This document shows positions 9,683 through 36,603 of a stretch of DNA of 36,603 nt, one piece after another (position 1 is the stretch's first letter; every line of letters starts with the position of its first letter). The translations under genes and the position numbers were made by a program. This DNA comes from an uncultured Dehalococcoidaceae bacterium. GTDB taxonomy: Bacteria > Chloroflexota > Dehalococcoidia > Dehalococcoidales > RBG-16-60-22. The notes below the pieces were generated by a model. It was not told the origin of the DNA. It worked only from the letters and a program-made list of their open reading frames with translations, and did not search any database. The stretch covers positions 1 to 36,603 of the forward strand of contig CAYNDI010000001.1 of NCBI GenBank assembly GCA_964395955.1, in the 5' to 3' direction.

Positions 9683-9697
9683 AAACAGAAAGGTATC

Positions 9698-10438: not shown

Positions 10439-10457
10439 CGAAATCTGAAAGACGGTT

Positions 10458-11174: not shown

Positions 11175-11180
11175 GGTATT

Positions 11181-11873: not shown

Positions 11874-11885
11874 GGGATTTATGCT

Positions 11886-12869: not shown

Positions 12870-12881
12870 CCGGTAAAGCGT

Positions 12882-14563: not shown

Positions 14564-14579
14564 ATTTCGATAAAAAGTA

Positions 14580-16402: not shown

Positions 16403-16416
16403 ATTATTTTCTATCC

Positions 16417-16866: not shown

Positions 16867-16868
16867 TG

Positions 16869-18637: not shown

Positions 18638-18662
18638 GAGCCGGGACCCCCAGATTATTTAT

Positions 18663-20465: not shown

Positions 20466-20481
20466 GCCGACAGGTCTCCTT

Positions 20482-21261: not shown

Positions 21262-21276
21262 CTTCCCCCACCTGTC

Positions 21277-22041: not shown

Positions 22042-22042
22042 A

Positions 22043-22960: not shown

Positions 22961-22972
22961 TTTTCTTGTCCG

Positions 22973-23941: not shown

Positions 23942-23970
23942 CTTGCTCCGTATCGCGTTATTATCGCCGG

Positions 23971-24585
23971 TCAGGCTTTACTGAGCTTCAGTCGAAGGTA
24001 TGACGTTACCATGTGGTCGATGACCATGTGGATGTCCTCGACCGGGCCGTATTCGCCCTTGCCGGTTTTTACCAGCACGGCGTAATCGCAGAGTGCGGCC
24101 AGCTTGCCGCCGTCGAAGCCTATCAATCCAATGACCGTACCGCCCATTTCTTTAGCCAGGCGGGCCGCCGCCAGGATATTCGGCGAGTTGCCGCTGCCGG
24201 AGATGGCAATCAGCAAGTCGTTTTTGGCGAACAGGTTTTGCATCTGTACGGTGAAAATGTCTTCGTAGGTAAAATCGTTGCCCAGGGCGGTCAGCAGGGG
24301 CACATTATCCACCAGGCTGATGGCTTTGAAACGGATTCCTTTATCCGGTCGACTGCACTGGATAAGGTCGGTGGCGAAGTGCGATGCCGTGGCGGCGCTG
24401 CCCCCGTTCCCCACCAGGAAGATAGCACTCCCTTTACGTGTTTTATCCAGTAATAACCCGGTCACCTGCTCCAGCACCCTGTAATCCATGCTTTGCAGCA
24501 GTTTACTCAGATGCACGCCGTAGCCGGAGAAAAAGTCCCTGGCTTTATCCATCCCGCGGAGTGACTGCGGTACCTGGTTTTCCAA
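23971..24585 (-). CDS. SIS-domain sugar-phosphate isomerase, GmhA-like
   Basis: IFLVGNGGSAATASHFATDL, LGNDFTYEDIF, LLIAISGSGNSPNIL and IGLIGFDGGKL match the GmhA (sedoheptulose-7-P isomerase) pattern. It is a single 204-aa SIS domain with no CBS domains. Confidence 0.75.
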   Translation of the reverse strand: MENQVPQSLRGMDKARDFFSGYGVHLSKLLQSMDYRVLEQVTGLLLDKTRKGSAIFLVGNGGSAATASHFATDLIQCSRPDKGIRFKAISLVDNVPLLTALGNDFTYEDIFTVQMQNLFAKNDLLIAISGSGNSPNILAAARLAKEMGGTVIGLIGFDGGKLAALCDYAVLVKTGKGEYGPVEDIHMVIDHMVTSYLRLKLSKA

Positions 24586-24617
24586 CTTCGGCTACCTCCT
24601 TGAAGATAACTATGTTT

Positions 24618-25625
24618 TTACATCTTTTTTGCCATGACGCGCGCGTAAGAGCTCAGCCGACTCTCCTGGAGAAAGTCCTGGAGGGCGTGCCAGGCTTTTT
24701 CGTCACGTTTCTTGAAAATATATCTCAGAAAATCCGGTATTGCGATATCCGGATTGTTCGCGGTGGCCGTACGTACTATTTCCACGTCCAGCCGGCCCGG
24801 CGTGCTTAGCTCTATTACTTCGAATCCCGTTTCCTTCAGCAAATTCTGGATAGCCTCTATCGAGAGCAGGTTAATCCTGTCCGGGGGGTGCAGGCGGGGC
24901 GAATCACCGTCTAATATCTGGTATTCAAAACCGCTGCTGGTATTGGTGGTAAAGAAGAACAGTCCCTGCGGTCCCAGGGCATTATGCACTTCTTTGATAA
25001 AAGCCATGGGGTCGAAGATACGCTCGATAACCTCGAAGGCGGTGAATACATCGGCTTTTCCGTCGAGCCCTTTGATATTTTCGCAGAATGAAACGCTTTC
25101 CGGCAGCAGGCCTTTCTCTTCCGGTAGCTCCGGTTTGATGGCGATTAAACGCTTGAATATACCGGCTTCATCGAGGGTGCCCAGCAGGGCGGGGTATTTG
25201 GTGCGGTAATCGGCGAAGGTCCCGGCTTCCGGCAGGTATTCGTCCGAAAGCTCCATTACCCACTGACCGAGGGGGAAGAACTGGTTGCGGTAGCGTGTTT
25301 CCCGGGTCCTGGCGGCAATCTCGTTTCTCCAGAAAGTGATAGCCTTCGAGTCGCGGTAAAAACCGTCCAACCTGTCCGCCGTAGGCCTGGGCGAGGCGAA
25401 CAGGGTGCCGCAACTCTGGCAGAGATTATACTGGAAACCCGTTTTCACGAAGGTTTTTTTATACTTTTTACCACCGCAGCCGGGGCAGTCCGTCTTTACC
25501 AGCTTTGATTCATCCGCCAGCAATACCCCCAGTTCGTCCTGTACCAGCTCCTTGTAGCGTTCGTACAGGGTATCCGGCCTTATCTCCGTTTCCCGCAGGT
25601 CTTCCAGAAAAACCACGCGTCTCAT
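24618..25625 (-). CDS. Zinc-ribbon methyltransferase-fold paralog (MT-B) with a degenerate SAM-binding motif I
   Basis: It is clearly paralogous to MT-C: both have CPGCGG...C..CGTLF..PRP, TPG.LD..IV and a shared C-terminal helix. Where MT-C has GDIGAGFG, MT-B has ADYRTKYP, and the post-I acidic residue (AIEPS) is AIKPE. Confidence 0.7.
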   Translation of the reverse strand: MRRVVFLEDLRETEIRPDTLYERYKELVQDELGVLLADESKLVKTDCPGCGGKKYKKTFVKTGFQYNLCQSCGTLFASPRPTADRLDGFYRDSKAITFWRNEIAARTRETRYRNQFFPLGQWVMELSDEYLPEAGTFADYRTKYPALLGTLDEAGIFKRLIAIKPELPEEKGLLPESVSFCENIKGLDGKADVFTAFEVIERIFDPMAFIKEVHNALGPQGLFFFTTNTSSGFEYQILDGDSPRLHPPDRINLLSIEAIQNLLKETGFEVIELSTPGRLDVEIVRTATANNPDIAIPDFLRYIFKKRDEKAWHALQDFLQESRLSSYARVMAKKM

Positions 25626-26671
25626 TTGACTATCCCTCTTTGTTTATTCAGATACCCCGCCCATTCGTTATCGGCGCGGTATATCCTCTGCACCATTTCC
25701 ATGACCTTGTAAGCGTCACGGGAGGAGCCGATGGCTACCGGCGTGTCCTCTATAATGTGCCGGGCGAAATCGTCGATTTCCATCTGCCATGACTTATCGT
25801 CTTCATAGAGGGTCAGTGTTTCGTGGGGATTAGGCAGCGGGTAGCCGTCGCGGTCATAAAGGCACCGGGCGGTCTTCAGCGTTTCCGGTGCATATGTGCC
25901 CGTGGCGGAGAGAATCCCGTCGACGGTCAGGTAGCCCTTTTCCAGGTAGATTTCCATGAGGAAACGGTGTTGCCACTGGGTTGCCGATGAATGCACCATC
26001 GCCACCTGGTTGGCCGTGTTTTTCATGATGACGAAGGCATTGTCCTCGACGGCGGTATTCCAGTAGGAACGGTTGATGAAGCTGTGGATATCGGTAAAAT
26101 CGGCGCAGAACATCAGCAGCAGGTCGACGAGGTGAATACCCTGGTCGAGTAATATGCCTCCCCCCGATATCCCGGGCTGAGTGCGCCAGTTTCGGTCGTA
26201 GCCGGGTCCGCCGGCTTTCCCGTAAATCCCCCGTATCCACATTATCTTCCCCAGCCGCCCCCTGTCGACGATTGATTTGGCGTCCTGCATGGCCTGGTGG
26301 TAGCGGTGGTTGAAGCCGAATTTTAATTTTACAGGCGGATTGGCAGTTTCTGCTTCCCGCATCAGGATAACGTCGTCCAGGTTTTTACCCGGCGGCTTTT
26401 CGCAGAATACATGAATACCCCGGTTCAGGGCATTGACCACTATCTCCGGGATATAGAGGTTGGGTGTGCATACAAATACGGCGTCAAGGTCCTGTTCCAG
26501 GAGGTCGCGATAGTCGCCGTAGAAGACGCTTTTCGGGTAGTCGGGCCGGTCTCCCGTGGTGACATCGCACACGGCGCGCAGGTCGAAAGCCGGATGGTTT
26601 TGGATTACCTCCGCCCGGATATTCCCCATCTTCCCCAGGCCGATGATGCCGACTTTGAGTCTATTTTTCAT
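25622..26671 (-). CDS. Gfo/Idh/MocA-family oxidoreductase
   Basis: The Rossmann motif is KVGIIGLGKMG and the EKP motif is VFCEKPPG. Length is 349 aa. Its stop and start codons overlap both neighbours. Confidence 0.8.
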   Translation of the reverse strand: MKNRLKVGIIGLGKMGNIRAEVIQNHPAFDLRAVCDVTTGDRPDYPKSVFYGDYRDLLEQDLDAVFVCTPNLYIPEIVVNALNRGIHVFCEKPPGKNLDDVILMREAETANPPVKLKFGFNHRYHQAMQDAKSIVDRGRLGKIMWIRGIYGKAGGPGYDRNWRTQPGISGGGILLDQGIHLVDLLLMFCADFTDIHSFINRSYWNTAVEDNAFVIMKNTANQVAMVHSSATQWQHRFLMEIYLEKGYLTVDGILSATGTYAPETLKTARCLYDRDGYPLPNPHETLTLYEDDKSWQMEIDDFARHIIEDTPVAIGSSRDAYKVMEMVQRIYRADNEWAGYLNKQRGIVK

Positions 26672-27761
26672 GCCCGCCTTTTATAATTTGTTCCATGCGC
26701 AGGTATACGTCGTCAAGCTGGACAAGTCGCAATAGTTTGCATATTTCGTAAACGACTATCTTATTATTCGAGTTCCAGGGATATTCCGCAAATCGGTTGA
26801 CGGGGATATCCCTGCCTTTCTTTTCTGGAAAAGCCGATGGTATCTTTTCCACGCGGCTGTCGCAGAGGAAAAGCGAGTCCTGACGGCCGACCCTCTGGAT
26901 GAGTTCCAGGTACTCCTTGATCTGCCGGTGCGTCATCTCCTGGAAAGCCCCGGTGCATACGGACAGGTCAATGGAGTCGTCGGCAATGGCCGGTGTCTGT
27001 CCGGGCGTCAGGAAGACGAAGTCGGCGGTATCGAAGCCGCGCGGACCTAGCTCGTGTGGCATGAGTATTTTCGCGTGTGGGAAGAGGCTGGCGAGGTGGG
27101 GGATAGATAAGCAGAGCGTTTCGGGCAGGTCTACAATGATGATATTGGAGCCGAATGTGTGGTGCAGTAAAGAGGCCAGGTTGCCGTTGCCGGCTCCGAT
27201 TTCCATGATTGTTTTCGGTTTCTCCCTAACGTATCCGTTGATGATATTGGTAAGGTAATAAGTGTAAACCATGTTGGAGTTGAGCTGATATTTATCTCCG
27301 GCGAAGAATACCCGCTTCATTTCTTCGGTAGACCTCACCGCGCCATCCTTCCTGCTTACGGCCGGAAAATCGATGCGTCCTGGGGCTGGTTCGATATCGG
27401 CTATCGGGTCCTGTGCCATCACCGCATCGAAAGCATGGAAATAGTCGAATAATCGTATCTGGCTTACCGCCTTTGCTCTGAAGTATTTATTCGCGATAAA
27501 TTCAATAATCGCGCCGGGATTACGCATGGCGGTGGCAGCCCTGTTTTTAATTACAGTGGTCGCGTTTTTCGCGGGTGGTACATAGTAGCCGGACATTCCC
27601 GTAACAGTGACGGTGCTATCGGATATTTGTACATGTATTTTGCCGGCATGGTATTCCCAGTAATCGGACTTGGCATAGCGGGACGTTTTCCGGTATTGAG
27701 GAGAGTCCATGAATTCGATAAATCTGGCGACGATATTTTTTGCCAGATTATAGGTGGCCAT
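26661..27761 (-). CDS. Putative sugar O-methyltransferase (large class I methyltransferase, 366 aa)
   Basis: Motif I, IMEIGAGNGNLASLL, sits late in the protein after a ~180-aa N-terminal domain (SDYWEYH...). This layout recalls the putative sugar O-methyltransferase family found in O-antigen and glycan loci. A strong AGGAG RBS lies upstream. Confidence 0.5.
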   Translation of the reverse strand: MATYNLAKNIVARFIEFMDSPQYRKTSRYAKSDYWEYHAGKIHVQISDSTVTVTGMSGYYVPPAKNATTVIKNRAATAMRNPGAIIEFIANKYFRAKAVSQIRLFDYFHAFDAVMAQDPIADIEPAPGRIDFPAVSRKDGAVRSTEEMKRVFFAGDKYQLNSNMVYTYYLTNIINGYVREKPKTIMEIGAGNGNLASLLHHTFGSNIIIVDLPETLCLSIPHLASLFPHAKILMPHELGPRGFDTADFVFLTPGQTPAIADDSIDLSVCTGAFQEMTHRQIKEYLELIQRVGRQDSLFLCDSRVEKIPSAFPEKKGRDIPVNRFAEYPWNSNNKIVVYEICKLLRLVQLDDVYLRMEQIIKGGHEK

Positions 27762-27868
27762 GATAACCTTCTCCTGCCTGATGCCCGTCGTTCAATTGAA
27801 CCGCAACCCTGCCGTAATCGTTACCTAAGTATAACACACCCGTGAGAGCCTTGATAACTCCCCGGTGA

Positions 27869-28861
27869 TTAACGCCCGGCCGGTTTTCTGGCTACGGCTC
27901 TCATGTGTGAACTGAATCCGCTTGCGGTAATCCAGGCCTGCAGGCTCTCTTTCGCCGCGGGTGTGGCGCGTTCGGCAAATGTCCTCCAGAGTCGTCCCGG
28001 GTCGATATTTTCGTTTCTATACATGCCTTCGACGATGTCCCAGTCGAGTTGCCCCGGGGTATCGACTTTCTCCACGATAAAGCCGCATTTTTCGAGTAAC
28101 AGGGCCAGCGAGCCGGGATTGAAGAAGTTGAGGTGGTGTGGCGGCGTCACGTTCTTGGACTTCTCCCAGAGTATCTGGATATCGAATCCCTCGCCGTTGA
28201 GGGTAGTCAGCAGCAGGCAGCCCCCGGGTTTCAGCAGCTCATGCGCTTTCTTGAGTCCGTCGGCAGGGGTGTGCAGGTGCTCCAGAAGCTCGAAAGATGT
28301 CAGCAGGTCAAAGCTCCTGTCCCGTCCCGTTACTTCCTCTATCCCGCAGGGGATAACCTCCAGGCTTTTCTCACGGCAGATATCGGCCATCTCGCCGGAC
28401 GGCTCGATAGCTGCCAGTTTAACGGCCGGCCAGAATTTACCGAGCTCTTCCAGGAAAATGCCGAATCCAGCGCCGATATCCCCGATAACCCCCTCTGATA
28501 TCTGCGTGAACTCGTCCCGGACGAACTCCGCCCTCGGTCGGAAAATCTTCTCGCGCCGGGCTTCGGCCACCGGTTTGAAGAAGTCGTTGACCCAGAAGCT
28601 GGCCGATTTTGACTTTGTATAGTAGTCCATCAGCAGGTCCGCCGGCGGACGGGGATTAACGAACAGTGTCCCGCAGTCCCGGCACAATACGTAACTGAAT
28701 CCCAGTTTCTCGAACTGGGCCCGGTGGCCCCGCCCGCCGCAGGCCGGGCAGCCAACCGGCCTGAAGAGGCTGCGGTCTTTAAAAATAGTGCGCACGTCTT
28801 CCGCTACCAGTTCCAGGTAGCGGTTCAACACCGAACGCTGGCGTATTTCCTCTTCTTTCAC
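27869..28861 (-). CDS. Class I SAM methyltransferase with an N-terminal Cys4 zinc-ribbon (MT-C)
   Basis: The zinc ribbon is CPACGG...x17...CRDCGTLFVNPRP. Motif I is IGDIGAGFGIF, the acidic residue is in AAIEPS and motif II is FDLLTSFELLEHL. Confidence 0.75.
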   Translation of the reverse strand: MKEEEIRQRSVLNRYLELVAEDVRTIFKDRSLFRPVGCPACGGRGHRAQFEKLGFSYVLCRDCGTLFVNPRPPADLLMDYYTKSKSASFWVNDFFKPVAEARREKIFRPRAEFVRDEFTQISEGVIGDIGAGFGIFLEELGKFWPAVKLAAIEPSGEMADICREKSLEVIPCGIEEVTGRDRSFDLLTSFELLEHLHTPADGLKKAHELLKPGGCLLLTTLNGEGFDIQILWEKSKNVTPPHHLNFFNPGSLALLLEKCGFIVEKVDTPGQLDWDIVEGMYRNENIDPGRLWRTFAERATPAAKESLQAWITASGFSSHMRAVARKPAGR

Positions 28862-28865
28862 CGGT

Positions 28866-29651
28866 TCAATCGCTCCTTTCCGACAGGTATCGGCCGACCA
28901 GCGGGTCTTTTTTCATATATTCTTCCACGGCGTTCAGTTGTTGCGGCGTATCCACCCCTAAGGTCTCGTAGTCAGTCGTTACCATCCTTATCTTGTAGCC
29001 GTGCTCGACGGCACGCAGCATGTCCACGGACTCTATAATTTCCAGGGGCGTCGGCTCGAGTTTATTAAATTTAAAGAGGAAGTCCCGCCGGAAAGCAATT
29101 ATACCCAGCTGCTTGAAGGCGGGTACCTGACCGGACGCCTTTTTTTGCGAAGGTATGGGCTCCCGGGAGAAATACAGGGCGTCGCTGTTATTGTCCACCA
29201 CCGTCTTGACCACGTTCGGGTCTTCGTACTCCTCGCGGTTCTTTATCCTTGCCATGAGGTTGGCGGCTGCCAGCGAAACATCCTCCAGCAGGGGGCGGAC
29301 CACCTCGTCCAGCATCTCCGGGAAAATCAGGGGTTCGTCTCCCTGGATATTGACCACGATGTCAACTTTCTGGCCGGTAGCGGCGATTATCTTTTCCGTA
29401 GCCTCGGCAATCCTGTCGGTACAGCGCTCGTGGGACGCCGAAGTCATGATGGCCTTGCCGCCGATTGATTTTACATAATCGGCAATCTCTTCATCGCACG
29501 TGGCTGCGTAGGCCTCACCGAGGGTTCGACTCATCTTGCTTCTGAAATAGACGTGTCCCACCATGGGTACGCCCAGGATTTTAGCCAGCGGTTTTCCGGG
29601 AAAGCGGGTTGATGCCATCCGGGCCGGGATTATTCCAATTACCTTCATCAT
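28866..29651 (-). CDS. KdsB-like CMP-ulosonic-acid synthetase (3-deoxy-manno-octulosonate cytidylyltransferase family)
   Basis: VIGIIPARMASTRFPGKPLAKILGVPMVGHVY and VVNIQGDEPLI follow the KdsB pattern (IIPARYASTRLPGKPL ... VNVQGDEPL). Length is 261 aa. Confidence 0.8.
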   Translation of the reverse strand: MMKVIGIIPARMASTRFPGKPLAKILGVPMVGHVYFRSKMSRTLGEAYAATCDEEIADYVKSIGGKAIMTSASHERCTDRIAEATEKIIAATGQKVDIVVNIQGDEPLIFPEMLDEVVRPLLEDVSLAAANLMARIKNREEYEDPNVVKTVVDNNSDALYFSREPIPSQKKASGQVPAFKQLGIIAFRRDFLFKFNKLEPTPLEIIESVDMLRAVEHGYKIRMVTTDYETLGVDTPQQLNAVEEYMKKDPLVGRYLSERSD

Positions 29652-29658: not shown

Positions 29659-31176
29659 TCACTCCGTTATATTACTATCCTCAGGCCGGTTTCTCGATAC
29701 GGTGGTGCGTATCTCCCGTATTATTACCCGTAGCTCGGTAATCGAAACGTAGTGGTGATAGAATATTGCGATTATAAAAGCCCAGATTAATAACTGACAT
29801 GCCAGCGTGATACCGGTGAAAGCCCACATGCTGTCTACTGCCGAATATAGATAGTTGTGCAGGAAATAGAAAGGAAGGCAACATGCAAAAGGTACCAGTA
29901 AAACCGCCGCAAACCTGACGAATTCACCCGGCGTTTTATAGATGTAATTTTTTATCAGGTAGTACAGAATCAATGTCACCAGGCCCTGGGTGCAGATGGT
30001 TACCCAGGCGACTCCGACTACTCCGTAACCGAGTTTGATAACCAGAATATCGAAACCGATGTTTAAAGCCAGGCCGATGGAGTAAAAGATCAGCGTGAGT
30101 TTCTGTTTGTTTACCAGGCTGGATCTCAGGATTAGCGAAGGTATAATCGCTATCGCCACCAGATAGAGATTGTAGGATAGTACGTTGAATATCGGTATGC
30201 TGTCGACATACTTCTTCGTCAGCAGGGTGGCTATCAGGGTAAAGATTAATTGAGCCAGGGGGATAACGATAGCCGTGCCCAGCGCCATATACACGGCGAT
30301 ACGCCGGGTATCCCTGAAGCCCTTATAAACCGACTCGGCGATACCGGCTTCCTGCCACAGGATGGGCTGTAACACCCTGCCGAAATCGTTGAAAAAAGTC
30401 AGCGCATAAGTTAGAAAACCCATGGCAAACGTATAGAATCCCAACTGTGCCAGGGGTAATGCCACGGCGATAATCGTCCTGTCGGCCATGCGGAAAGCCC
30501 ATAACATTATCCCCAGCCCCTGGAGAACGATACCTATTTTCACCAGCCGGATAATTTCCCGTCTGTCCAGTGAAAAGCGGAAACCGATGGCCCCCCTGGT
30601 GAAGTAGTAGACCAGCGCCACGGCATGGGCGACCAGCGGCCCCACAATCAGGGCGTAGACTTTCAGCCAGTGCAGGCTGGCCAGTATGATAACCGGGGAA
30701 ATAATCGTGATTACCAGGTTCCCCAGCGCCACTGTGTTGAATTTCTGCCTTATAAAGTTTATGTGGGACCAGAGGCCGGTCAGGCGGTTGACGACATAGC
30801 TCATAGCGATGATGAGTAGGCCGGTTTTAAGAATGGTGTCCGCATAAAAAAAGGAAGCCCCTATGATTACAGCGGTGGGGGCTATAGTATAAAGCAGTTC
30901 GGCGGAAACGGAGATATTCTGGACTCTCAACGCATCTTTCTCCCGGCCTTTTCCCAGGAGCACGGGTATTTCCCGGGAAGCGGCGCCGTATATTCCCGGT
31001 GTCACGAGGCCGACATACATCAGCCATAATGTGAGTAAACCGTAAGTCCCGTATTCCGTCGGGGTGAGTATCGTAGCGGCGTACAGGGTTACGGCCAAAC
31101 CGGCCACGGCCGATATGCCCTGCACGAAAGTGAACTTCATCGAGTTCCTGGCTATGTTGATGATGCTTATCGGCAT
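29659..31176 (-). CDS. Wzx-like oligosaccharide/polysaccharide flippase (MOP superfamily)
   Basis: The protein is 505 aa and very hydrophobic, with roughly 12-14 predicted TM helices throughout. Its position, between glycosyltransferase genes and sugar-activation genes, fits a flippase. Confidence 0.6.
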   Translation of the reverse strand: MPISIINIARNSMKFTFVQGISAVAGLAVTLYAATILTPTEYGTYGLLTLWLMYVGLVTPGIYGAASREIPVLLGKGREKDALRVQNISVSAELLYTIAPTAVIIGASFFYADTILKTGLLIIAMSYVVNRLTGLWSHINFIRQKFNTVALGNLVITIISPVIILASLHWLKVYALIVGPLVAHAVALVYYFTRGAIGFRFSLDRREIIRLVKIGIVLQGLGIMLWAFRMADRTIIAVALPLAQLGFYTFAMGFLTYALTFFNDFGRVLQPILWQEAGIAESVYKGFRDTRRIAVYMALGTAIVIPLAQLIFTLIATLLTKKYVDSIPIFNVLSYNLYLVAIAIIPSLILRSSLVNKQKLTLIFYSIGLALNIGFDILVIKLGYGVVGVAWVTICTQGLVTLILYYLIKNYIYKTPGEFVRFAAVLLVPFACCLPFYFLHNYLYSAVDSMWAFTGITLACQLLIWAFIIAIFYHHYVSITELRVIIREIRTTVSRNRPEDSNITE

Positions 31177-31177
31177 A

Positions 31178-32407
31178 TCATACCCCGGATTTCACTTTCT
31201 TCGCTTCTATCGCTTCTTTTATCCGGGTTTCCAGCTGCTCCGCGATGCTTTCGCAGCTGTGGACTTTCTTCACGTATTCCAGGCCGTTGCGTTCCAGGCG
31301 CTGCCGGTATTCTTTATCTTTCAGGAGGTTGACCAGCTTCTCCGCCATGTCTTCGGCGGTACCGGCAAAAGCTATGCCCTGTTCCTCCCCGGGAGTTACT
31401 GCTACCAGGCCGGGCAGCGGTGTGGCCACAATGGCTTTGGCGCAGGCCAGGTACTGGACTATTTTTCCCGGAAAGATTTCCCGGGTGGCGCCGGTTATCC
31501 GGAAGGGGTTCAGGCACACGGTAGCTATATTGATATATTGCGGCATTGTCTCGTACGGCTGAAAGCCCGTGATAATTACTTTGTCTCCCACCCCCGTCTC
31601 AGTGATGATGCTTTCGAGTTTCCGACGCTGCGGTCCGTCCCCGACGATGAGCAGTTTTACATCGGGTACCCGGCTGGCGATTTCCGGCAGCCGGGGGATT
31701 ATCAGGTCGAGTCCGCTGAAATCGAAGAGCGTGCCCATATAGAGGATGACGTTGTCCTTTTCCTGGATATCCCACTGCATTCGCAGTTCGGCGGGGGCCG
31801 GGAAAGGGTAAAAGATAGCCGTGTCCACCGGCATGGGCAGCAGCTTTATCCTGTCCTCTTTAGCCCCGAAATTAGCCGTATATCTGGAAAGGCTGGGTGT
31901 CAGTGTCAGAATCATGTCCGAACGGGCGTAGACCAGCTTTTCCAGCATCTTAGTAAACGGCCTCAAAACAGGATAGACAACGAGTTGGTTGAGGATGTCA
32001 ATCGACCTGAATACGACGGGGATTTGGTATCGACGGGCAGCGTAGATAGCCTGCAGGCCATTGGTGGCGGCGCTGTAGAGGACGACGGCGTCTATCTTTT
32101 TCTCCCGGATAGTCTTGCTGATGGCTGTGCAATGTGTATAAGCGGCGGATATTCGACTCAGCCCGCCTATTTTTATTAAGCCCGGTCTGATAAGCGTTAC
32201 CGAAGAGCCGCTGAAAGCGCGTGACACGCCTTCTATCTCCTGTGTCTTGAAAGAACCCATATCGGTCAGGCCTTGACGTTTCCAGGTGTTTTCGTAGTCG
32301 ATGGCGTAGATTTTGTGCCCCCGCAGCGATAACGATTCCGCCAGGGTATGGATGTCGAAGACTACCTTGTTCAGCCAGTCGACTTCATGGATGAAGAGGA
32401 CATTCAC
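31178..32407 (-). CDS. GT-B glycosyltransferase, family GT4-like (WbuB-like)
   Basis: The N-terminus is MNVLFIHEVDW... The C-terminal domain reads ILYMGTLFDFSGLD...VKLLIVGDGPQ...ITGFQPYETMPQYINIATVCLNPF...GKIVQYLACAKAIVA. Confidence 0.75.
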   Translation of the reverse strand: MNVLFIHEVDWLNKVVFDIHTLAESLSLRGHKIYAIDYENTWKRQGLTDMGSFKTQEIEGVSRAFSGSSVTLIRPGLIKIGGLSRISAAYTHCTAISKTIREKKIDAVVLYSAATNGLQAIYAARRYQIPVVFRSIDILNQLVVYPVLRPFTKMLEKLVYARSDMILTLTPSLSRYTANFGAKEDRIKLLPMPVDTAIFYPFPAPAELRMQWDIQEKDNVILYMGTLFDFSGLDLIIPRLPEIASRVPDVKLLIVGDGPQRRKLESIITETGVGDKVIITGFQPYETMPQYINIATVCLNPFRITGATREIFPGKIVQYLACAKAIVATPLPGLVAVTPGEEQGIAFAGTAEDMAEKLVNLLKDKEYRQRLERNGLEYVKKVHSCESIAEQLETRIKEAIEAKKVKSGV

Positions 32408-32419
32408 GCTGTAACTCCG

Positions 32420-33346
32420 CTACTTAATGCCATATACGGATTTCATCCATTCTATTGTCCGGGGTATGCCTTCCTCGGGGGGTACCTTCGGGTCGTGTTT
32501 CAGGTCACGCCGGGACTTGCTGTAATCGATATGCTTGACCTGGGTGGTGAAGGGCTCGCCTTTCTTGTAAGTAACCTTGGAGTCGTCCTTGCCCAGGTAT
32601 TCGAGTATCAGGTCGGAGACGTGTTTGATGTCGCATTCCCAGTCTTCCTTGCCGCCGACGTTATAGACCTCGCCGGCGATGAAGTTGTCGGCGATATTCG
32701 CAAAGGTTCGGCAGGTATCCTCCACGTAGTCGAAGATGCGCTTGTGCCCCGTGTAAACGGTATATGGTTCATCGTGGAGGGCTTTATGGATGAACGCGGG
32801 GATAACGCCCCGGTAGGGGTGATAGTGCTCATAGGGACCGTAGGCGTTGACCGGCCGCACCCTGACGGTCTCCGTGCCGAACATCTCCGCCGAGTTCAGC
32901 ACCATGAGCTCTCCCGCCCACTTGGTGACGGCGTAATCGTTCATCTGCTTGATAGCCAGTTTGTCCATCACGTCTTCGCTCATCTTTCCCGTGTAATCGC
33001 CGTAGACCTCGGCGCTGGAAAAGAATATCATCTTAAACTTCTTCCGCTCCTGGAGGCGGAGCATGTGCTTGGTGCCGATGACGTTGGTCTGCCAGAGGTT
33101 TTCGTAGTAGTCCTCGCCGTTCCACCGCCCGTATTCCGCCGCCAGGTGATAAACGAAATCGAAATCGTGAGTATTAAAAATCCGCTCTATCTGCCGGTAC
33201 TCCCGGGTATCGCAGCGTATGTAGTTGGCCGTGGCTGCAGAGTTCATTAAATCGCAGACCCACACCTCATGGCCGCGCTGTCTCAGTTCCGGCACGAGGT
33301 TCGAGCCGATGAACCCGGTGCCTCCGGTAACCAGTATCTTAGCCAT
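32420..33346 (-). CDS. NAD-dependent sugar-nucleotide epimerase/dehydratase (extended SDR)
   Basis: The sequence contains MAKILVTGGTGFIGSNL, FSSAEVYG and YAVTK (YxxxK). I place the start at ATG 33346, which has a GGAGG RBS (33353-33357) 6 nt upstream and overlaps the wecB stop by 8 nt. The 35-codon N-terminal extension in the ORF track (to 33451) lies inside wecB and is rejected. Confidence 0.8.
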   Translation of the reverse strand: MAKILVTGGTGFIGSNLVPELRQRGHEVWVCDLMNSAATANYIRCDTREYRQIERIFNTHDFDFVYHLAAEYGRWNGEDYYENLWQTNVIGTKHMLRLQERKKFKMIFFSSAEVYGDYTGKMSEDVMDKLAIKQMNDYAVTKWAGELMVLNSAEMFGTETVRVRPVNAYGPYEHYHPYRGVIPAFIHKALHDEPYTVYTGHKRIFDYVEDTCRTFANIADNFIAGEVYNVGGKEDWECDIKHVSDLILEYLGKDDSKVTYKKGEPFTTQVKHIDYSKSRRDLKHDPKVPPEEGIPRTIEWMKSVYGIK

Positions 33347-34421
33347 CTTTTGCCTCCATGATGATGTTGATAATCCTTGCGGCGGCCTTTCCGTCCCCGA
33401 AGGGATTGGCCCAGTCCTTCTTCCTGTCCAGCATGGCCGCGGCACACTCAAGTATTTTATCCGCCGACGCGCCGGCCAGTATGTTCGCCCCCGCCTCTAC
33501 TGTTTCCGGACGTTCCGTGTTGTCCCGCAGCGTTACGCAGGGCACTTTCAGGATGCAGGTTTCCTCCTGGACGCCCCCGGAGTCGGTCAGTACCAGCCGG
33601 GCGTTGCTTTCCAGTTGCAGGAAGCTGAGAAAGTCCACCGGGTCGATTGTTTTAACGTTCTCCGGCGGCTTGGCCAGGTCGTCTATCAGCTTTCGGCTTC
33701 TCGGGTGGGCGGGATAAACGACCGGCAGACCGAACTTACCGGCGACCCGGCTTAGTCCCTCCAGGATTGAGCTGAACCTTTCTTCGTTATCGGTGTTCTC
33801 CTGGCGGTGCAGGGTGGCCAGGAAATATTTCTGAGGCTTGAGCTGGAACTGTTTTTCGATGTCTACTTGGCCCCTAGCTAGCTCCAGGTTCTGATAAACG
33901 GCATCGACGATTGTATTTCCGGTGACGAACACCTTCTCCTTGCCGATTCCCTCACCGAGCAGTATCTCCCGCGCTTTGGCTGTCGGCGCGAAGAGGTAGT
34001 CCGAGATATGGTCGGCCAGCACCCGGTTGATTTCCTCCGGCATCGTCCGGTCGTAGGAGCGCAGTCCCGCCTCCACGTGCCCGACCCTGATGCCGAGTTT
34101 GACCGCCGCCAGGGCGCCGGCCAGGACGCTGTTGGTGTCCCCCTCCACGAGGACGATATCCGGCTTTTCCTCTTTGAGTATTCCCTCGATACCGATGAGC
34201 ATCTTGCCGGTCTCTTCGGCGTGGGAGCCGGAGCCGACTTCTATATTATATTTCGGCGGGGGTATTTCCAGCTGGTCGAAAAAGACCTTGTCGAGCTGGT
34301 AGGAATAGTGCTGTCCGGTGTGGAGTGTGAAAAAGCCTGTCCTGTTTTCCTGCAGTATTTTCAGCAGGGGAGCCATCTTGATTATTTCGGGGCGGGTTCC
34401 GAGGATTACCGAAATCTTCAT
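33339..34421 (-). CDS. wecB: UDP-N-acetylglucosamine 2-epimerase (non-hydrolysing)
   Basis: The sequence MKISVILGTRPEIIKMAPLL...HTGQHYSY...VEGDTNSVLAGALAA...HVEAGLRS...TLHRQENTD...TDSGGVQEE is classic WecB/MnaA. It is the first gene of the minus-strand operon. Confidence 0.9.
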   Translation of the reverse strand: MKISVILGTRPEIIKMAPLLKILQENRTGFFTLHTGQHYSYQLDKVFFDQLEIPPPKYNIEVGSGSHAEETGKMLIGIEGILKEEKPDIVLVEGDTNSVLAGALAAVKLGIRVGHVEAGLRSYDRTMPEEINRVLADHISDYLFAPTAKAREILLGEGIGKEKVFVTGNTIVDAVYQNLELARGQVDIEKQFQLKPQKYFLATLHRQENTDNEERFSSILEGLSRVAGKFGLPVVYPAHPRSRKLIDDLAKPPENVKTIDPVDFLSFLQLESNARLVLTDSGGVQEETCILKVPCVTLRDNTERPETVEAGANILAGASADKILECAAAMLDRKKDWANPFGDGKAAARIINIIMEAKDG

Positions 34422-34535
34422 GCGGCAGACTTATCTCCTGACGGGTGATAGTCCCGGAGCCTGGCGATTTGCTGTCACCGGAACCGGTCAACCGGAGAGA
34501 CAGGCTTGGCTCCGGTCAGGTAAATAGTTTCTGTA

Positions 34536-34564
34536 ATTATAACCCACCCCGTTGGCGTTAGCAA
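34536..34564 (-). promoter_or_regulatory. Putative sigma70-type promoter of the minus-strand glycan operon
   Basis: The minus strand reads TTGCTA (34564-34559), a 17-nt spacer and TATAAT (34541-34536). This predicts a ~105-nt leader before the wecB ATG at 34421. This is a motif-only prediction. Confidence 0.4.
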
Positions 34565-34598
34565 GGTAATCCTTATCTCTATACCCCACCTCACATAG

Positions 34599-34647
34599 GT
34601 TATCTTTTCCCACCCTGGCCGCCCTCGCGTCATCTACGGCTTATCCC
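34599..34647 (-). repeat. ~50-bp repeat unit, inverted copy A'
   Basis: Its reverse complement, GGGATAAGCCGTAGATGACGCGAGGGCGGCCAGGGTGGGAAAAGATAAC, matches unit copy 1 at 43/49 positions by hand alignment. Confidence 0.85.
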
Positions 34648-34755
34648 TAAAAGGCTTCTTGTCATTCTGAGCGGAGCGAAGAATCTCAGGGTGGGGACAA
34701 TGTCGTTCCGGAATAGGCTGGAATCCAGTTCTCTTTTCCCCCACCCCCCTCGTGG

Positions 34756-34804
34756 GTTATCTGTCCCCACCCAGGCCGCCCGGTATCATCTACGACTTTC
34801 CCCG
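34756..34804 (-). repeat. ~50-bp repeat unit, inverted copy B' (more diverged)
   Basis: Its reverse complement is GGGGAAAGTCGTAGATGATACCGGGCGGCCTGGGTGGGGACAGATAAC. The conserved core is GGGCGGCC.GGGTGGG...AGATAAC. Confidence 0.75.
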
Positions 34805-34862
34805 TAATTCCAAAAGAGGGAGTGCGCAGCGAGAGGGGCGATAACCCCTCTCAATAATACTT

Positions 34863-34919
34863 CCCCCTCTCAAACATGATAAAGAACGAGTCATAGAGAT
34901 AAAGATGTTTGAGAGGGGG
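34863..34919. repeat. Long palindromic hairpin (15-bp perfect arms, 27-nt loop)
   Basis: The left arm is CCCCCTCTCAAACAT (34863-34877) and the right arm is ATGTTTGAGAGGGGG (34905-34919). The arms share the CCCCCTCTC/GAGAGGGGG motif with the hairpins at 4347-4369 and 34831-34852. Confidence 0.8.
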
Positions 34920-34974
34920 TCAGGGGGTGAGTACAAAAGATATACCTTTAGTGGACGGAAACCCTGTGATTGTC

Positions 34975-35003
34975 TTGCAAAGCAGGCATATATATGCCAT
35001 AAT
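34975..35003 (+). promoter_or_regulatory. Putative promoter of the oligosaccharyltransferase gene
   Basis: The arrangement is TTGCAA (34975-34980), a 17-nt spacer and CATAAT (34998-35003). The spacer contains the 14-bp palindrome GGCATATATATGCC (34985-34998). This is a motif-only prediction. Confidence 0.25.
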
Positions 35004-35051
35004 TGAGCCAACTTTATTACCGAAGCCCCCTTACGGAGTCGCCAATCGGAT

Positions 35052-36603
35052 ATGAGTGCCAGCAGATTATCTCCGAGATTAATTGTCGCCTTACTCGTTA
35101 CCATCGCTTTCGGTATTTCCCTGCTCTTTCGTGTCGTCCTTCCTTTCGACCAGGTTTTCAGCGGTGATTGGGTCAAATATACCAGCGTAGATGCCTATTT
35201 TCATATGCGTCTGGTCGATAACATAGTACATAATTTCCCGCATCTCATGAATTTCGACCCCTACTTCTATTTTCCCGATGGTTCTTATATCAGCAATACC
35301 TATTTCCCGGACTGGCTTTTAGGCGGTATCATCTGGCTGTTCGGCCTGGGTTCTCCCACGCAAAATACGGCCAATGTTATCAGTGTATTATTCCCGGCTA
35401 TGATTGCCGCCCTGACGGTTATCCCCGTTTATTTCATCGGCAAAGCGCTGTTTAACCGCTGGGTAGGCGTTCTGGCGGCGTTTTTGATGGCAATACTCCC
35501 CGGTGAATATTTAGGTCGTACAATACTGGGTCTAAACGATACTCCCGGTATTGAAGTAATGTTAAGCACTACTTTCCTCGCTTTTATTATCTGGGCTATT
35601 AAGACCGCCCGTGAAAGAGAACTGACCTTTAACCATATCTTGAAGTTTGATAGGTCAAAGTGTATTAAGCCTCTCGTGTTAAGTGTCCTTGGCGGAGTAT
35701 TTCTGGGACTGTATCTTATCAGCTGGATAGGGGCGCTGCTCTTTGTTTTTATCTTTATCCTTTATCTGGTCATCAGGTTCATCAAGGACCACCTGGAGCA
35801 GCGTTCGGTTGACTACCTGGGTATTGTCAGTGTCCCATCATTGGTGGTTGCCCTGATAGTCTTTTCACCGATTGCCCCAAGCTCTTTTTACGTAATATCC
35901 CTGGTTCTGGCCATCTTTGTTCCGGTGTTAATCATCGTTATTTCACGGTTGATGACGTCTAGAAAAATAAATCCGTACTATTTTCCCGTCGCGCTGGTCG
36001 TTATGGGCGGTATCGCTGCGGCTATATATTACGGTATTAAACCGGATTTATTTCGTGCGATGCTATCCCGGTTCGATATCTTTACCCCGACCGGGTCTAC
36101 CGCTACTACCACCATCGAGATGCAGCCCTTCCTGGCTCCAACCGGCAGCTTTACCACGGCCATCGGCTGGGGTAACTTCACCACCAGCTTTTTCCTGTTC
36201 AGCAAATGGGCTTTTCCCGGTGTAGCTCTCATATCATTGAGTATTATTATTTACCTTTTCATCAGGAAAGACGGCACGTCACCGGGCTACCTCCGTCCGG
36301 TTATCTGGACTCTGATGATTATTGTGGTAATAATGGTGATGCTGTTGATGTCCGGTTACGGTCACCGGTATTGGTCTCTGGTATTTGCCGCTGTCCTGGT
36401 GGCTCTCCTTTTTATGCCGGGCGATGGGAAGAAACACTGGGCGCTCTTCCTTGTCTGGACTCTGGTGATTTTAGCTTTAACCCTTGGCCAGCGACGTTTT
36501 GCCTATTACCTTGTGGTTAATATCGCCGTGCTTTCCGCGTATTTCTGCTGGCAGGTAGTCTGGCTGGCCGGCATCAGGAAGCTGGCAACCAGGTCGGGGG
36601 AGA
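35052..36603 (+). CDS. STT3/AglB/PglB-superfamily oligosaccharyltransferase, N-terminal membrane domain (3' end outside window)
   Basis: I hand-translated the frame from ATG 35052; it stays open for 517 codons to the window end, so it is absent from the ORF track. The protein is multi-TM. It carries an EL1 acidic motif VDAYFHMRLVDNIVHNFPHLMNFDPYFYFPDG (compare STT3/AglB D.yyh.R...D...YP.G). A second acidic loop reads GRTILGLNDTPGIEV. An EL5 motif TTIEMQPF matches SVSEHQP of STT3 and TIxE of PglB. The catalytic WWDYG region would lie downstream of the window. Confidence 0.85.
   Translation, partial: MSASRLSPRLIVALLVTIAFGISLLFRVVLPFDQVFSGDWVKYTSVDAYFHMRLVDNIVHNFPHLMNFDPYFYFPDGSYISNTYFPDWLLGGIIWLFGLGSPTQNTANVISVLFPAMIAALTVIPVYFIGKALFNRWVGVLAAFLMAILPGEYLGRTILGLNDTPGIEVMLSTTFLAFIIWAIKTARERELTFNHILKFDRSKCIKPLVLSVLGGVFLGLYLISWIGALLFVFIFILYLVIRFIKDHLEQRSVDYLGIVSVPSLVVALIVFSPIAPSSFYVISLVLAIFVPVLIIVISRLMTSRKINPYYFPVALVVMGGIAAAIYYGIKPDLFRAMLSRFDIFTPTGSTATTTIEMQPFLAPTGSFTTAIGWGNFTTSFFLFSKWAFPGVALISLSIIIYLFIRKDGTSPGYLRPVIWTLMIIVVIMVMLLMSGYGHRYWSLVFAAVLVALLFMPGDGKKHWALFLVWTLVILALTLGQRRFAYYLVVNIAVLSAYFCWQVVWLAGIRKLATRSGE

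What the first reader, a model, noticed from the sequence alone, without database searches (positions are those of the whole stretch)
35052..36603. STT3/AglB-type oligosaccharyltransferase hidden from the ORF track, directly downstream of the glycan island
An open frame of at least 517 codons starts at 35052 and runs off the window. Its sequence carries the hallmark loops of the STT3/AglB/PglB family:
- DAYFHMR...FDPYFYFPDG in the first external loop
- a second acidic loop, LGLNDTPGIEV
- TTIEMQP, which resembles eukaryotic and archaeal SVSEHQP more than the bacterial PglB TIAE context

The gene sits 630 bp from the start of a 30-kb sugar-activation, glycosyltransferase and flippase island, separated only by repeat elements. 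This strongly suggests an en-bloc N-linked (or O-linked) protein glycosylation system. The RBS and promoter style suggest the host is a bacterium. If so, an AglB-like rather than PglB-like enzyme would be notable.
Basis: partly seen in the sequence, partly recalled or inferred. Interest (0 to 1): 0.7.

Follow-up and report, generated by a model that had tools for sequence, protein, structure and literature searches.

The report
Archaeal-type N-glycosylation enzyme in a bacterium
The open frame at the end of the window is the first half of a gene for an archaeal-type (AglB) enzyme that attaches ready-made sugar chains to proteins; it sits in a Dehalococcoidales bacterium beside its sugar-building genes and belongs to a large bacterial clade that databases annotate automatically but the papers I could search do not describe.

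Summary
Positions 35052-36603 (+) form a 517-codon frame with no stop that runs off the window. The chance of this is 3e-10, and dN/dS against its ortholog is 0.23.

- **Family:** It is the membrane domain of an AglB-type oligosaccharyltransferase. It matches Pfam STT3 (2e-27) and TIGR04154, and its best solved relative is Archaeoglobus fulgidus AglB. No PglB chain matches.
- **Catalytic residues:** D47, R156, D163, E356 and R481/R482 align with the AfAglB-L catalytic residues. One metal ligand differs: Pro165 replaces His163.
- **Missing C-terminus:** WWDYG cannot be seen in the window. A collinear ortholog (93% aa identity, L001) has WWDYG and a DK-type motif, as do 114 of 114 full-length homologs.
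- **Host:** The host is bacterial. Named relatives are Dehalococcoidia/Chloroflexota, some on 1-2 Mb contigs. They separate from Methanosarcinales/Syntropharchaeia/ANME-1 AglBs in 84% of NJ bootstraps.
- **Context:** The divergent layout of WecB, epimerase, GT1 and Wzx flippase opposite the OST is kept in relatives only 56-59% identical.
- **Unexpected:** The ortholog and 16 other bacterial members carry a cytoplasmic DnaJ-type J domain before the last membrane helix.
- **Novelty:** The enzyme is a new member of a known kind.

The parts
35052..36603 (+). 5' part (517 codons, about 56%) of an AglB-type oligosaccharyltransferase gene. It covers TM1-TM12 plus an extra 2-TM hairpin (aa ~412-460) and is cut off by the window end.
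   Evidence: The ortholog L001:10001-12769 is 922 aa.
35184..35198 (+). SVDAY. D47 is the catalytic, metal-binding Asp of external loop 1 and aligns with D47 of AfAglB-L.
   Evidence: Alignments; invariant column D47; residue roles from PMC7226087.
35253..35282 (+). FDPYFYFPDG, a conserved segment of external loop 1 (AfAglB-L has FDPFTYYPYG).
35514..35555 (+). GRTILGLNDTPGIE, the second metal-site motif. R156 and D163 align with AfAglB-L R154 and D161. Pro165 replaces the ligand His163, and E168 is conserved.
36108..36128 (+). TTIEMQP, the TIXE/SVSE-type motif of external loop 5. E356 aligns with the catalytic E360 of AfAglB-L.
36486..36509 (+). GQRRFAYY, conserved Arg pair at the outer end of TM11/TM12 (AfAglB-L has GQNRFAYY). 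This is the likely phosphate-binding Arg for the lipid-linked donor.
   Evidence: The role is inferred from PglB R375 and yeast R404 in PMC7226087.
34975..35003 (+). Sigma-70-like promoter candidate TTGCAA-17-(TG)CATAAT, about 49 nt upstream of the ATG.
   Evidence: consensus match only.
34422..35051 (.). 630-bp divergent intergenic region with dispersed REP/MITE-like repeats (34584-34624 and 34741-34781), a perfect 15-nt inverted repeat (34863-34919), and a minus-strand promoter candidate (34564-34536).
29659..34421 (-). Conserved core transcribed divergently from the OST: WecB UDP-GlcNAc 2-epimerase (33339-34421), NAD-dependent sugar epimerase/dehydratase (32420-33451), GT1 (31178-32407) and a Wzx-type flippase (29659-31176).
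   Evidence: The same order is found in L001, L017 and L018.
15434..29651 (-). Strain-variable accessory cassette: KdsB-type CMP-ulosonate synthetase, methyltransferases, GFO/IDH oxidoreductase, SIS isomerase, 2-hydroxyacid dehydrogenase, IMPase-like phosphatase, HpcH aldolase, a 600-aa protein with no family match, nucleotidyltransferase, dehydratase and epimerases.
   Evidence: The cassette is absent from L017 and L018. Gene 26661-27761 is absent from L001.
6468..15407 (+). Second arm of the glycan cluster: epimerase/dehydratase, GT1, oxidoreductase, nucleotidyltransferase, methyltransferase, racemase, a Glyphos_transf-like protein, GT1, hexapeptide acyltransferase and GT2.
   Evidence: Matching genes occur in L018.

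Best explanation
The ORF is the N-terminal membrane domain of a functional single-subunit AglB-type (GT-C, STT3 family) oligosaccharyltransferase in a Dehalococcoidales (Chloroflexota) bacterium.

Shown:
- Family membership.
- The catalytic residues D47, R156, D163, E356 and R481/R482.
- Purifying selection.
- The bacterial host.
- Conserved divergent pairing with a glycan-assembly cluster.
- A bacterial clade that separates from Methanosarcinales/Syntropharchaeia/ANME-1 AglBs.

Inferred:
- The neighbouring genes make nucleotide sugars (UDP-ManNAc through WecB, and a CMP-ulosonic acid through the KdsB-type enzyme).
- GT1/GT2 enzymes build a polyprenyl-phosphate-linked oligosaccharide on the cytoplasmic face.
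- The Wzx-type flippase turns the oligosaccharide to the outer face.
- The OST then transfers it in one block to Asn in N-X-S/T sequons of exported proteins. It does this with the missing C-terminal domain, where WWDYG and the DK-type motif form the +2 Ser/Thr pocket.
- The most likely acceptors are S-layer or other surface proteins, because Dehalococcoidia lack peptidoglycan.
- The gene most likely entered an ancestor of these Chloroflexota once, from a Methanotecta-type euryarchaeon, and then diversified there.
For: Family:
- Pfam STT3 E 2e-27 against PMT_2 1e-4, which is below its cutoff.
- TIGR04154 scores 308 bits over model positions 2-434 and 511 bits for the full-length ortholog.
- AfAglB-L is the best PDB match and the catalytic residues align.
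- An AF2 model of family member P0026 (pLDDT 85, pTM 0.79) matches AfAglB-L at Foldseek E 1e-30.

C-terminus:
- L001 is collinear with the window at 92-94% nt identity.
- Its 922-aa protein has WWDYG at aa 708-712 and D-x6-K-x3-V with the same spacing as AfAglB-L.
- 114 of 114 full-length homologs have WWD[YF]G.
- D47, D163, E356, R431/R432, WWD, D708 and K715 (P0026 numbering) are invariant in 50 sequences.

Functionality: dN/dS is 0.23 against L001.

Host:
- Record titles and names point to Dehalococcoidia/Chloroflexota.
- Contigs reach 1.1, 1.56 and 2.0 Mb.
- Sigma-70-like promoters are predicted.

Link to the glycan genes:
- The same layout of WecB, epimerase, GT1 and flippase opposite the OST occurs in L017 and L018, at 56-59% OST identity.
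- Sugar epimerases are the commonest neighbour family across the other loci.

Origin:
- Methanosarcinales, Syntropharchaeia and ANME-1 AglBs lie outside a clade of 111 of 135 sequences that contains all 13 labelled bacteria. NJ bootstrap support is 251 of 300.

Envelope context:
- Dehalococcoidia genomes lack peptidoglycan synthesis, and S-layer glycoproteins have been hypothesised for them (PMC4959651, PMC3971608).
- An archaellum transfer from Methanotecta into the same classes is documented (PMC12488501).
Against: - The window ends at aa 517, so WWDYG and the DK motif of this exact gene are not seen. The source contig could not be recovered.
- Pro165 replaces the metal ligand His163 of AfAglB-L in this subclade (33 sequences, against 163 with His), so the metal-site geometry may differ.
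- No initiating transferase (phosphoglycosyl transferase or Dol-P-hexose synthase type) was found in the window.
- The OST and the island are transcribed divergently and are not one operon.
- No acceptor protein, glycan or activity has been observed for any member of the bacterial clade.
- The only structure of a Chloroflexota archaellum shows probable O-linked, not N-linked, glycans.
- The tree is NJ on 450 columns, only 19 tips carry taxon labels, and the archaeal sister group is unresolved.
- Most host labels come from MAGs.
Confidence: 0.78

Rival explanations
1. The enzyme is a repurposed GT-C. The bacterial clade kept the AglB fold but now transfers the lipid-linked glycan to something other than protein Asn. 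Candidates are a wall polymer, a lipid, protein O-linkage, or water (release of free oligosaccharide).
For: The His163-equivalent metal ligand is replaced by Pro in the window's subclade. The bacterial clade has its own EL5 signature, TT[ILVM]EMQP, where archaeal relatives have TIAE. Lineage-specific insertions occur: J domains and TM hairpins. The solved Chloroflexota archaellum carries probable O-glycans. No N-glycoprotein is known from this group.
Against: The residues that read the sequon and activate Asn are invariant across the clade: D47, E356, WWD and the Lys of the DK motif. The ortholog passes the curated TIGR04154 cutoff. Known O-oligosaccharyltransferases and O-antigen ligases belong to other families, and PMT_2 scores below its cutoff.
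Confidence: 0.1
2. The contig is really archaeal, either mis-binned or chimeric, so this is an ordinary AglB in its usual domain.
For: The best family model is an archaeal subfamily. Nearly all host labels come from MAGs. Identity to Syntropharchaeia AglB (40%) equals identity to distant Chloroflexota members. Archaeal-family neighbours (DUF1616) appear at two loci.
Against: Relatives lie on single contigs of 1.1, 1.56 and 2.0 Mb, and the 2.0 Mb contig makes up most of a MAG classified as Chloroflexia. All 13 labelled bacterial sequences separate from all 6 labelled archaeal ones in 84% of bootstraps. The inserted J domain is 55-61% identical to Thermus DnaJ. Sigma-70-like promoters are predicted, and L001 carries a Fur-type regulator.
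Confidence: 0.03
3. The gene is a decaying remnant of a horizontal transfer and no longer does anything.
For: One canonical metal ligand is lost (Pro165). The J-domain HPD motif is degenerate in many members, including the closest ortholog, which has HSD. The window copy is only seen in part.
Against: dN/dS is 0.23 and the 517-codon frame is intact. The family has 310 clusters at 50% identity with E<=1e-30, and the catalytic positions are invariant. Synteny with glycan genes is conserved.
Confidence: 0.03
4. The gene is a PglB-type bacterial OST or another non-OST GT-C enzyme (ArnT or PMT type).
For: The host is bacterial. There is a weak PMT_2 hit at E 1e-4.
Against: No PglB chain matches at E<=10 by sequence. 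By fold, PglB ranks 17th (1e-10) and PMT ranks lower. The family has a DK-type motif, not the MXXI motif.
Confidence: 0.01

Closest known systems
Archaeoglobus fulgidus AglB-L (PDB 3WAJ/3WAK/5GMY/7E9S)
   Same: It is the best sequence match (E 2.5e-28 for the fragment, about 1e-46 to 1e-49 for full-length relatives) and the best fold match (Foldseek 1e-30, TM 0.66). D47, R154, D161, E360, the QNRFAYY Arg, WWDYG and a DK motif with the same D-x6-K-x3-M/V spacing all align.
   Different: Identity is only 27% over the membrane domain. Pro165 replaces the metal ligand His163. The window protein has an extra 2-TM hairpin between TM10 and TM11, its ortholog has a J domain between TM12 and TM13, and its host is bacterial.
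TIGR04154 subfamily: archaeosortase-A-associated AglB of Euryarchaeota; nearest sequences here are from Methanosarcinales, Syntropharchaeia and ANME-1
   Same: The full-length ortholog passes the curated cutoff (511 against 450 bits). Identity to these archaeal proteins is 34-40%. The D-x-H..E, WWDYG and DK motifs are shared with most of the bacterial clade.
   Different: The bacterial sequences separate from them (84% NJ bootstrap) and have their own signatures: TT[ILVM]EMQP against T[IV]AE-x-x-P, and QRRFAYY against QNRFAYY. Co-occurrence with archaeosortase A and PGF-CTERM, which defines the subfamily's name, was not examined.
Campylobacter PglB (PDB 3RCE/5OGL/6GXC)
   Same: It is a single-subunit bacterial OST next to a glycan-assembly locus with a flippase. 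It has the same GT-C fold (Foldseek 1e-10).
   Different: There is no detectable sequence match at E<=10. The window family has a DK-type motif rather than MXXI. Nothing suggests the extended D/E-X-N-X-S/T sequon requirement.
Eukaryotic STT3A/STT3B/Stt3
   Same: It has the same fold (Foldseek 1e-19 to 1e-13) and the same DK motif. Sequence matches run from 2e-10 to 0.02.
   Different: Eukaryotic STT3 works inside a multi-subunit complex. The sequences are much more distant. The eukaryotic EL5 motif is SVSE.
Membrane-anchored J-domain proteins (E. coli DjlA; eukaryotic Sec63)
   Same: In the ortholog and 16 relatives, a J domain is held at the membrane next to export-related machinery. It matches Pfam DnaJ at 79 bits and superimposes on DnaJ J domains at about 1 Å rmsd.
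   Different: Here the J domain is inserted inside an OST polypeptide. It faces the cytoplasm (Sec63's faces the lumen). Its HPD motif is often degenerate. My searches found no paper describing such a fusion.

Membership tests
STT3/AglB/PglB oligosaccharyltransferases (GT-C fold) | N-terminal multi-span membrane domain that matches the STT3 profile | tested here: met
   PF02516 scores E 2e-27 and 97 bits against a 24.5-bit cutoff, over aa 26-400. About 13 hydrophobic segments are present.
STT3/AglB/PglB oligosaccharyltransferases (GT-C fold) | Catalytic Asp in external loop 1 (AfAglB-L D47, PglB D56) | tested here: met
   D47 in SVDAY aligns with AfAglB-L D47 and is invariant in 50 homologs.
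STT3/AglB/PglB oligosaccharyltransferases (GT-C fold) | Second metal-binding motif D-x-D / D-x-E / D-x-H, preceded by a conserved Arg | tested here: inconclusive
   R156 and D163 are present and invariant. The third position is Pro165 where AfAglB-L has the ligand His163. E168 is conserved at +5. Family-wide counts are H 163 and P 33.
STT3/AglB/PglB oligosaccharyltransferases (GT-C fold) | Catalytic Glu of the TIXE/SVSE motif in external loop 5 | tested here: met
   E356 in TTIEMQP aligns with AfAglB-L E360 and is invariant.
STT3/AglB/PglB oligosaccharyltransferases (GT-C fold) | WWDYG motif in the C-terminal extracytoplasmic domain | not testable with these tools
   The window ends at aa 517, before this domain, and the source contig was not recovered. 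By proxy, the collinear 93% ortholog has WWDYG at aa 708-712, and 114 of 114 full-length homologs have WWD[YF]G.
STT3/AglB/PglB oligosaccharyltransferases (GT-C fold) | DK motif (AglB/STT3) or MXXI motif (PglB) that completes the +2 Ser/Thr pocket | not testable with these tools
   The motif lies outside the window. The ortholog has D-DQTVRS-K-YWA-V, which aligns with AfAglB-L D-IEMETC-K-YYA-M. The D-x6-K-x3-[VIM] pattern is nearly universal in the family.
STT3/AglB/PglB oligosaccharyltransferases (GT-C fold) | Transfer of a lipid-linked glycan to Asn of N-X-S/T | not testable with these tools
   This needs biochemistry or glycoproteomics.
TIGR04154 (archaeosortase-A-associated AglB subfamily) | Whole-protein score at or above the curated cutoff of 450 bits | tested here: inconclusive
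   The window fragment scores 308.5 bits over model positions 2-434 of 831 and falls short only because it is truncated. The full-length ortholog scores 511 bits.
TIGR04154 (archaeosortase-A-associated AglB subfamily) | Co-occurrence with archaeosortase A and PGF-CTERM proteins in the same genome | not tested
   Only 10-kb flanks were available, and no exosortase or archaeosortase family appeared among the 25 families listed for 92 neighbouring ORFs.
PglB-type bacterial OST | Detectable similarity to PglB, and an MXXI motif | tested here: not met
   No PglB chain matches at E<=10. The family has a DK-type motif. PglB ranks only 17th by fold.
J-domain (DnaJ/Hsp40) co-chaperones; applies to the ortholog's insert, not to sequence seen in the window | J-domain fold with a His-Pro-Asp motif | tested here: inconclusive
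   PF00226 scores 79 bits in L001. The modelled J domain of P0026 has pLDDT 86-93 and about 1 Å rmsd to DnaJ. HPD is canonical in P0026, P0049, P0057 and P0063, but it is HSD in L001 and degenerate in many others.

The most novel reading that the evidence does not exclude
The window's gene continues, as in its 93% ortholog, into a DnaJ-type J domain inserted in the cytoplasmic loop between TM12 and the last TM. The enzyme would then be a fusion of an OST and a co-chaperone. It would recruit DnaK to the glycosylation site, holding export substrates unfolded or timing their delivery. That would physically couple Hsp70-assisted export to N-glycosylation in a bacterium with an archaeal-style envelope. 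Functionally this would parallel the eukaryotic Sec61-Sec63/BiP-OST assembly, but it would have arisen independently after a cross-domain gene transfer.
Probability: 0.15. Interest if true: 0.8.

Novelty: new member of a known kind. Interest (0 to 1): 0.6.

Why it matters
OST-dependent N-glycosylation in bacteria is usually described as a PglB trait of Campylobacterota and some Desulfobacterota.

Here an archaeal-type AglB is shown to belong to a large, diversified clade in Dehalococcoidia/Chloroflexota. The whole family has 310 clusters at 50% identity with E<=1e-30, and 111 of the 135 sampled sequences fall on the bacterial side. Members sit beside flippase and glycan-assembly genes.

These bacteria lack peptidoglycan and are thought to have S-layers. 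The same classes also acquired an archaellum from Methanotecta-type archaea, the group that holds the nearest archaeal AglBs.

If the enzymes are active:
- The archaeal-like envelope of Dehalococcoidia would include archaeal-style N-glycosylation.
- The known taxonomic range of N-OSTs would widen.
- New single-subunit OSTs would be available for glyco-engineering.

The J-domain variants add a testable link between chaperones and glycosylation.

The limit on novelty is that NCBI and IMG pipelines already name these proteins correctly. What is missing is any description or experiment.

Tried and rejected
- **Recovering the window's own contig.** Exact-protein look-ups of three neighbouring genes found nothing. 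The genome scan and the metagenome scan returned relatives but not the source contig. The C-terminal half therefore rests on orthologs.
- **tRNA and Rfam scans of the window** for taxonomic or regulatory clues found nothing.
- **PglB, ArnT/PMT or O-antigen-ligase identity** was rejected.
- **Repeats as island boundaries.** Copies flank the island in inverted orientation, but the same element is scattered through other intergenic regions of L001, so I rejected the idea.
- **A search for an initiating transferase** in the window and in L017/L018 found none. The GT2 is generic (TuaG/PglI-like, far below cutoffs).
- **Literature searches** for AglB/STT3/OST together with Chloroflexi or Dehalococcoidia, and for J domain plus OST, found no relevant description. 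The library holds only open-access papers and bioRxiv preprints, so this is absence of evidence only.
- **Naming the donor lineage.** In bootstraps the archaeal sister of the bacterial clade is unresolved.
- **First bootstrap run.** It had a distance overflow and was redone with a cap on distances. Only the second run is used.
Full report
**Observation.** Translating 35052-36603 (+) gives 517 codons from an ATG with no stop, and the frame runs off the window. With the window's base composition the chance of this is 3e-10. The ORF tool omits it only because it does not list ORFs that reach an end of the sequence. All the quoted motifs are present at aa 45-49, 68-77, 155-168 and 353-359. The nearest gene is a true WecB UDP-GlcNAc 2-epimerase (33339-34421, minus strand; 426 bits against a 210 cutoff). 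It starts 630 bp away and is transcribed divergently.

**What the protein is.**
- Pfam gives STT3 at E 2e-27, while PMT_2 stays below its cutoff.
- NCBIfam gives a single hit, TIGR04154 'oligosaccharyl transferase, archaeosortase A system-associated', at 308.5 bits over model positions 2-434 of 831. That is the half of the model the fragment can cover.
- The best solved relative is Archaeoglobus fulgidus AglB-L (E 2.5e-28).
- In that alignment D47, R156, D163, E356 and the Arg of GQRRFAYY fall on AfAglB-L D47, R154, D161, E360 and QNRFAYY. The roles of these residues are taken from PMC7226087.
- One difference: Pro165 sits where AfAglB-L has the metal ligand His163.

**The missing half.**
- The source contig could not be recovered.
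- A genome scan found L001, from an uncultured Dehalococcoidaceae MAG. It is collinear with the window at 92-94% nucleotide identity over 23977-36597.
- Its OST is 93% identical over the 517 residues and 922 aa long. It passes the TIGR04154 cutoff (511 against 450 bits) and has WWDYG at aa 708-712. Its motif D-DQTVRS-K-YWA-V aligns residue for residue with the DK motif region of AfAglB-L.
- Among the 120 closest database proteins, all 114 that are long enough have WWD[YF]G, and almost all have D-x6-K-x3-[VIM].
- In a 50-sequence alignment the catalytic and sequon-reading positions are invariant.
- dN/dS between the window and L001 is 0.23.

**AglB, STT3 or PglB.**
- A J-domain-free homolog (P0001) matches AfAglB-L at 9e-47, human STT3A at 2e-10 and yeast Stt3 at 0.02. 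It matches no PglB chain at E<=10.
- An AlphaFold2 model of family member P0026 (pLDDT 85.2, pTM 0.79) gives the same order by fold: AfAglB-L 1e-30, eukaryotic STT3 1e-19 to 1e-13, PglB 1e-10, then DPY19 and PMT.

**Host and origin.**
- Every named close relative is Chloroflexota, Dehalococcoidia or Dehalococcoidales.
- Several relatives lie on very long contigs of 1.11, 1.56 and 2.0 Mb. The 2.0 Mb contig carries two 98%-identical copies about 640 kb apart.
- An exhaustive search of 1.84 billion cluster representatives found 1871 clusters at E<=1e-3 and 310 at E<=1e-30.
- In an NJ tree of 135 sequences, the labelled Methanosarcinales, Syntropharchaeia, ANME-1 and Archaeoglobus proteins fall outside a group of 111 sequences that contains all 13 labelled bacteria. 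That split appears in 251 of 300 bootstraps. The archaeal sister group is not resolved.
- The archaeal relatives keep D-x-H..E, T[IV]AE and QNRFAYY. The bacterial clade has TT[ILVM]EMQP and QRRFAYY, and the window's subclade has D-T-P.
- These results fit one transfer from a Methanotecta-type euryarchaeon followed by diversification.
- The same donor group was proposed for the archaellum of Dehalococcoidia and Anaerolineae (PMC12488501). That paper does not mention an OST.

**Link to the sugar genes.**
- In L017 and L018, whose OSTs are only 56-59% identical to the window's, the same block is transcribed divergently from the OST: WecB, epimerase/dehydratase, GT1 (in L018 only) and a Wzx-type flippase. 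GT1, methyltransferase and GT2 genes lie beyond it and an AFOR gene lies downstream.
- The window has the same two arms (6468-15407 and 29659-34421) and an extra cassette of about 14 kb (15434-29651). The cassette includes a KdsB-type CMP-ulosonate synthetase (318 bits against a 255 cutoff), a SIS isomerase, an HpcH aldolase, a phosphatase and methyltransferases.
- The layout looks like a conserved core with a strain-variable middle, as in O-antigen loci.
- In more distant loci the recurrent neighbour is a sugar epimerase (7 of 92 neighbouring ORFs).
- No initiating transferase is encoded in the window, so the type of lipid carrier remains open.

**Mechanism.**
- Shown: the family, the catalytic residues, purifying selection, the host and the conserved synteny.
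- Inferred from how AglB and PglB systems work: glycan assembly on a polyprenyl phosphate, flipping by the Wzx-type protein, and transfer in one block to Asn of N-X-S/T on the outer face of the membrane.
- S-layer or other surface proteins are the likely acceptors. Dehalococcoidia genomes lack peptidoglycan synthesis, and S-layer glycoproteins made by archaeal-like glycosyltransferases have been hypothesised for them (PMC4959651, PMC3971608). Neither paper names an OST.

**Unexpected feature.**
- The L001 ortholog carries a DnaJ-type J domain (Pfam DnaJ 79 bits; aa 533-596) between TM12 and the last TM (aa 619-643).
- The C-terminal domain must lie outside the cell, and the segment before the last TM is strongly basic. 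The J domain should therefore face the cytoplasm. This is inferred from the known topology of AglB.
- An HMM of this insert finds it in 16 of 318 fetched family proteins. All are on the bacterial side of the tree and they fall in several subclades.
- The modelled domain superimposes on DnaJ J domains at about 1 Å rmsd and is 55-61% identical to Thermus DnaJ.
- HPD is canonical in four members but degenerate in many. L001 has HSD.
- P0001 and P0002, which are 74-76% identical to the window's fragment, lack the insert.
- The window ends 15 residues before the point where the insert begins in L001, so its presence in this gene is probable but not shown.
- My searches found no paper describing such a fusion.

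**Verdict.** TIAE is also the archaeal state, so TTIEMQP is not evidence of eukaryote likeness. O-linkage is unlikely because the sequon pocket is invariant. The enzyme is a new member of a known family in an unusual host. Annotation pipelines already label these proteins, but the literature I could search does not discuss them.

Noticed in passing
L001:11597-11788 (J domain) and 11855-11929 (last TM); also P0026, P0031, P0041, P0049, P0057, P0063, P0065, P0075, P0121, P0123, P0124, P0130, P0173, P0174, P0178: A DnaJ-type J domain is inserted in the cytoplasmic loop before the last TM of the OST. It occurs in several bacterial subclades and in none of the fetched archaeal relatives. HPD is canonical in four members and degenerate in many (HSD in L001). 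The window ends just before the insertion point.
   Followed up: partly
window 34599-34624 and 34756-34781 (+); 4433-4458 and 4595-4620 (-); L001 9512-9593, 9687-9738, 12840-12886, 13106-13153, 14095-14158: A short repeat, GTTATCTNTNCCCACCCNGGCCGCCC, is dispersed through intergenic regions (4 copies in the window, 0 expected by chance). It lies on both sides of the sugar island in inverted orientation but also elsewhere in L001. It looks like a REP/MITE-like element of this lineage.
   Followed up: partly
window 34692-34920: This segment of the intergenic region does not align with the otherwise collinear L001 in the blastn comparison. It contains a perfect 15-nt inverted repeat (34863-34877 / 34905-34919), so it may be a small inserted element.
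   Followed up: no
window 35544-35546 (Pro165): The window's subclade has D-T-P-x-x-E where AfAglB-L, the archaeal relatives and most bacterial members have D-x-H-x-x-E. The His is a metal ligand in AfAglB-L. Counts in fetched proteins are His 163 and Pro 33.
   Followed up: partly
window ~36285-36431 (aa ~412-460): The window's OST has an extra pair of TM helices between TM10 and TM11 compared with P0026-type members. Other members carry different hairpin insertions: P0005 and P0014 after EL5, and L002, L004 and L005 before the last TM. The TM domain appears to tolerate modular insertions.
   Followed up: no
window 15434-29651 (-): This accessory cassette is absent from L017 and L018. It encodes a KdsB-type CMP-ulosonate synthetase, a SIS isomerase, an HpcH-type aldolase (not KdsA), an IMPase-like phosphatase, a 2-hydroxyacid dehydrogenase and several methyltransferases. 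It may be a non-canonical route to a CMP-activated, methylated ulosonic acid. Gene 26661-27761 is missing from L001.
   Followed up: partly
window 18663-20465 (-): A 600-aa ORF inside the sugar island has no Pfam match. It appears soluble, and its C-terminal half loosely resembles a glycosyl- or phosphotransferase by eye.
   Followed up: no
L017:12709-13581 (overlaps the OST stop codon); L018:12894-13766; L001 from 13211 (broken by a run of N): A conserved 290-aa polytopic membrane protein with an HELGH motif lies directly downstream of the OST. It gives a weak Peptidase_M50B-like hit (E 9e-4, below cutoff). It could be a processing partner.
   Followed up: partly
L004 and L005 (CAWCLJ010000004.1, 1321922-1343301 and 682538-703917): Two 893-aa OST paralogs, 98% identical, lie about 640 kb apart on one 2.0 Mb contig, each in a different neighbourhood.
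   Followed up: no
window 3902-4101 against L001 17962-18161 (opposite strand): The HypA-like region upstream of the island in the window matches a segment downstream of the OST in L001 at 93.5% identity and in inverted orientation. The two close genomes therefore differ by a rearrangement around the island.
   Followed up: no
L002-L016 neighbourhoods: Recurrent non-sugar neighbours of the OST are transglutaminase-like membrane proteins (3), B12-binding radical SAM enzymes (3; the window also has one at 4791-6290), DUF169 (3) and DUF1616 (2; E 4e-70), which I recall, without checking here, as a mostly archaeal family.
   Followed up: no
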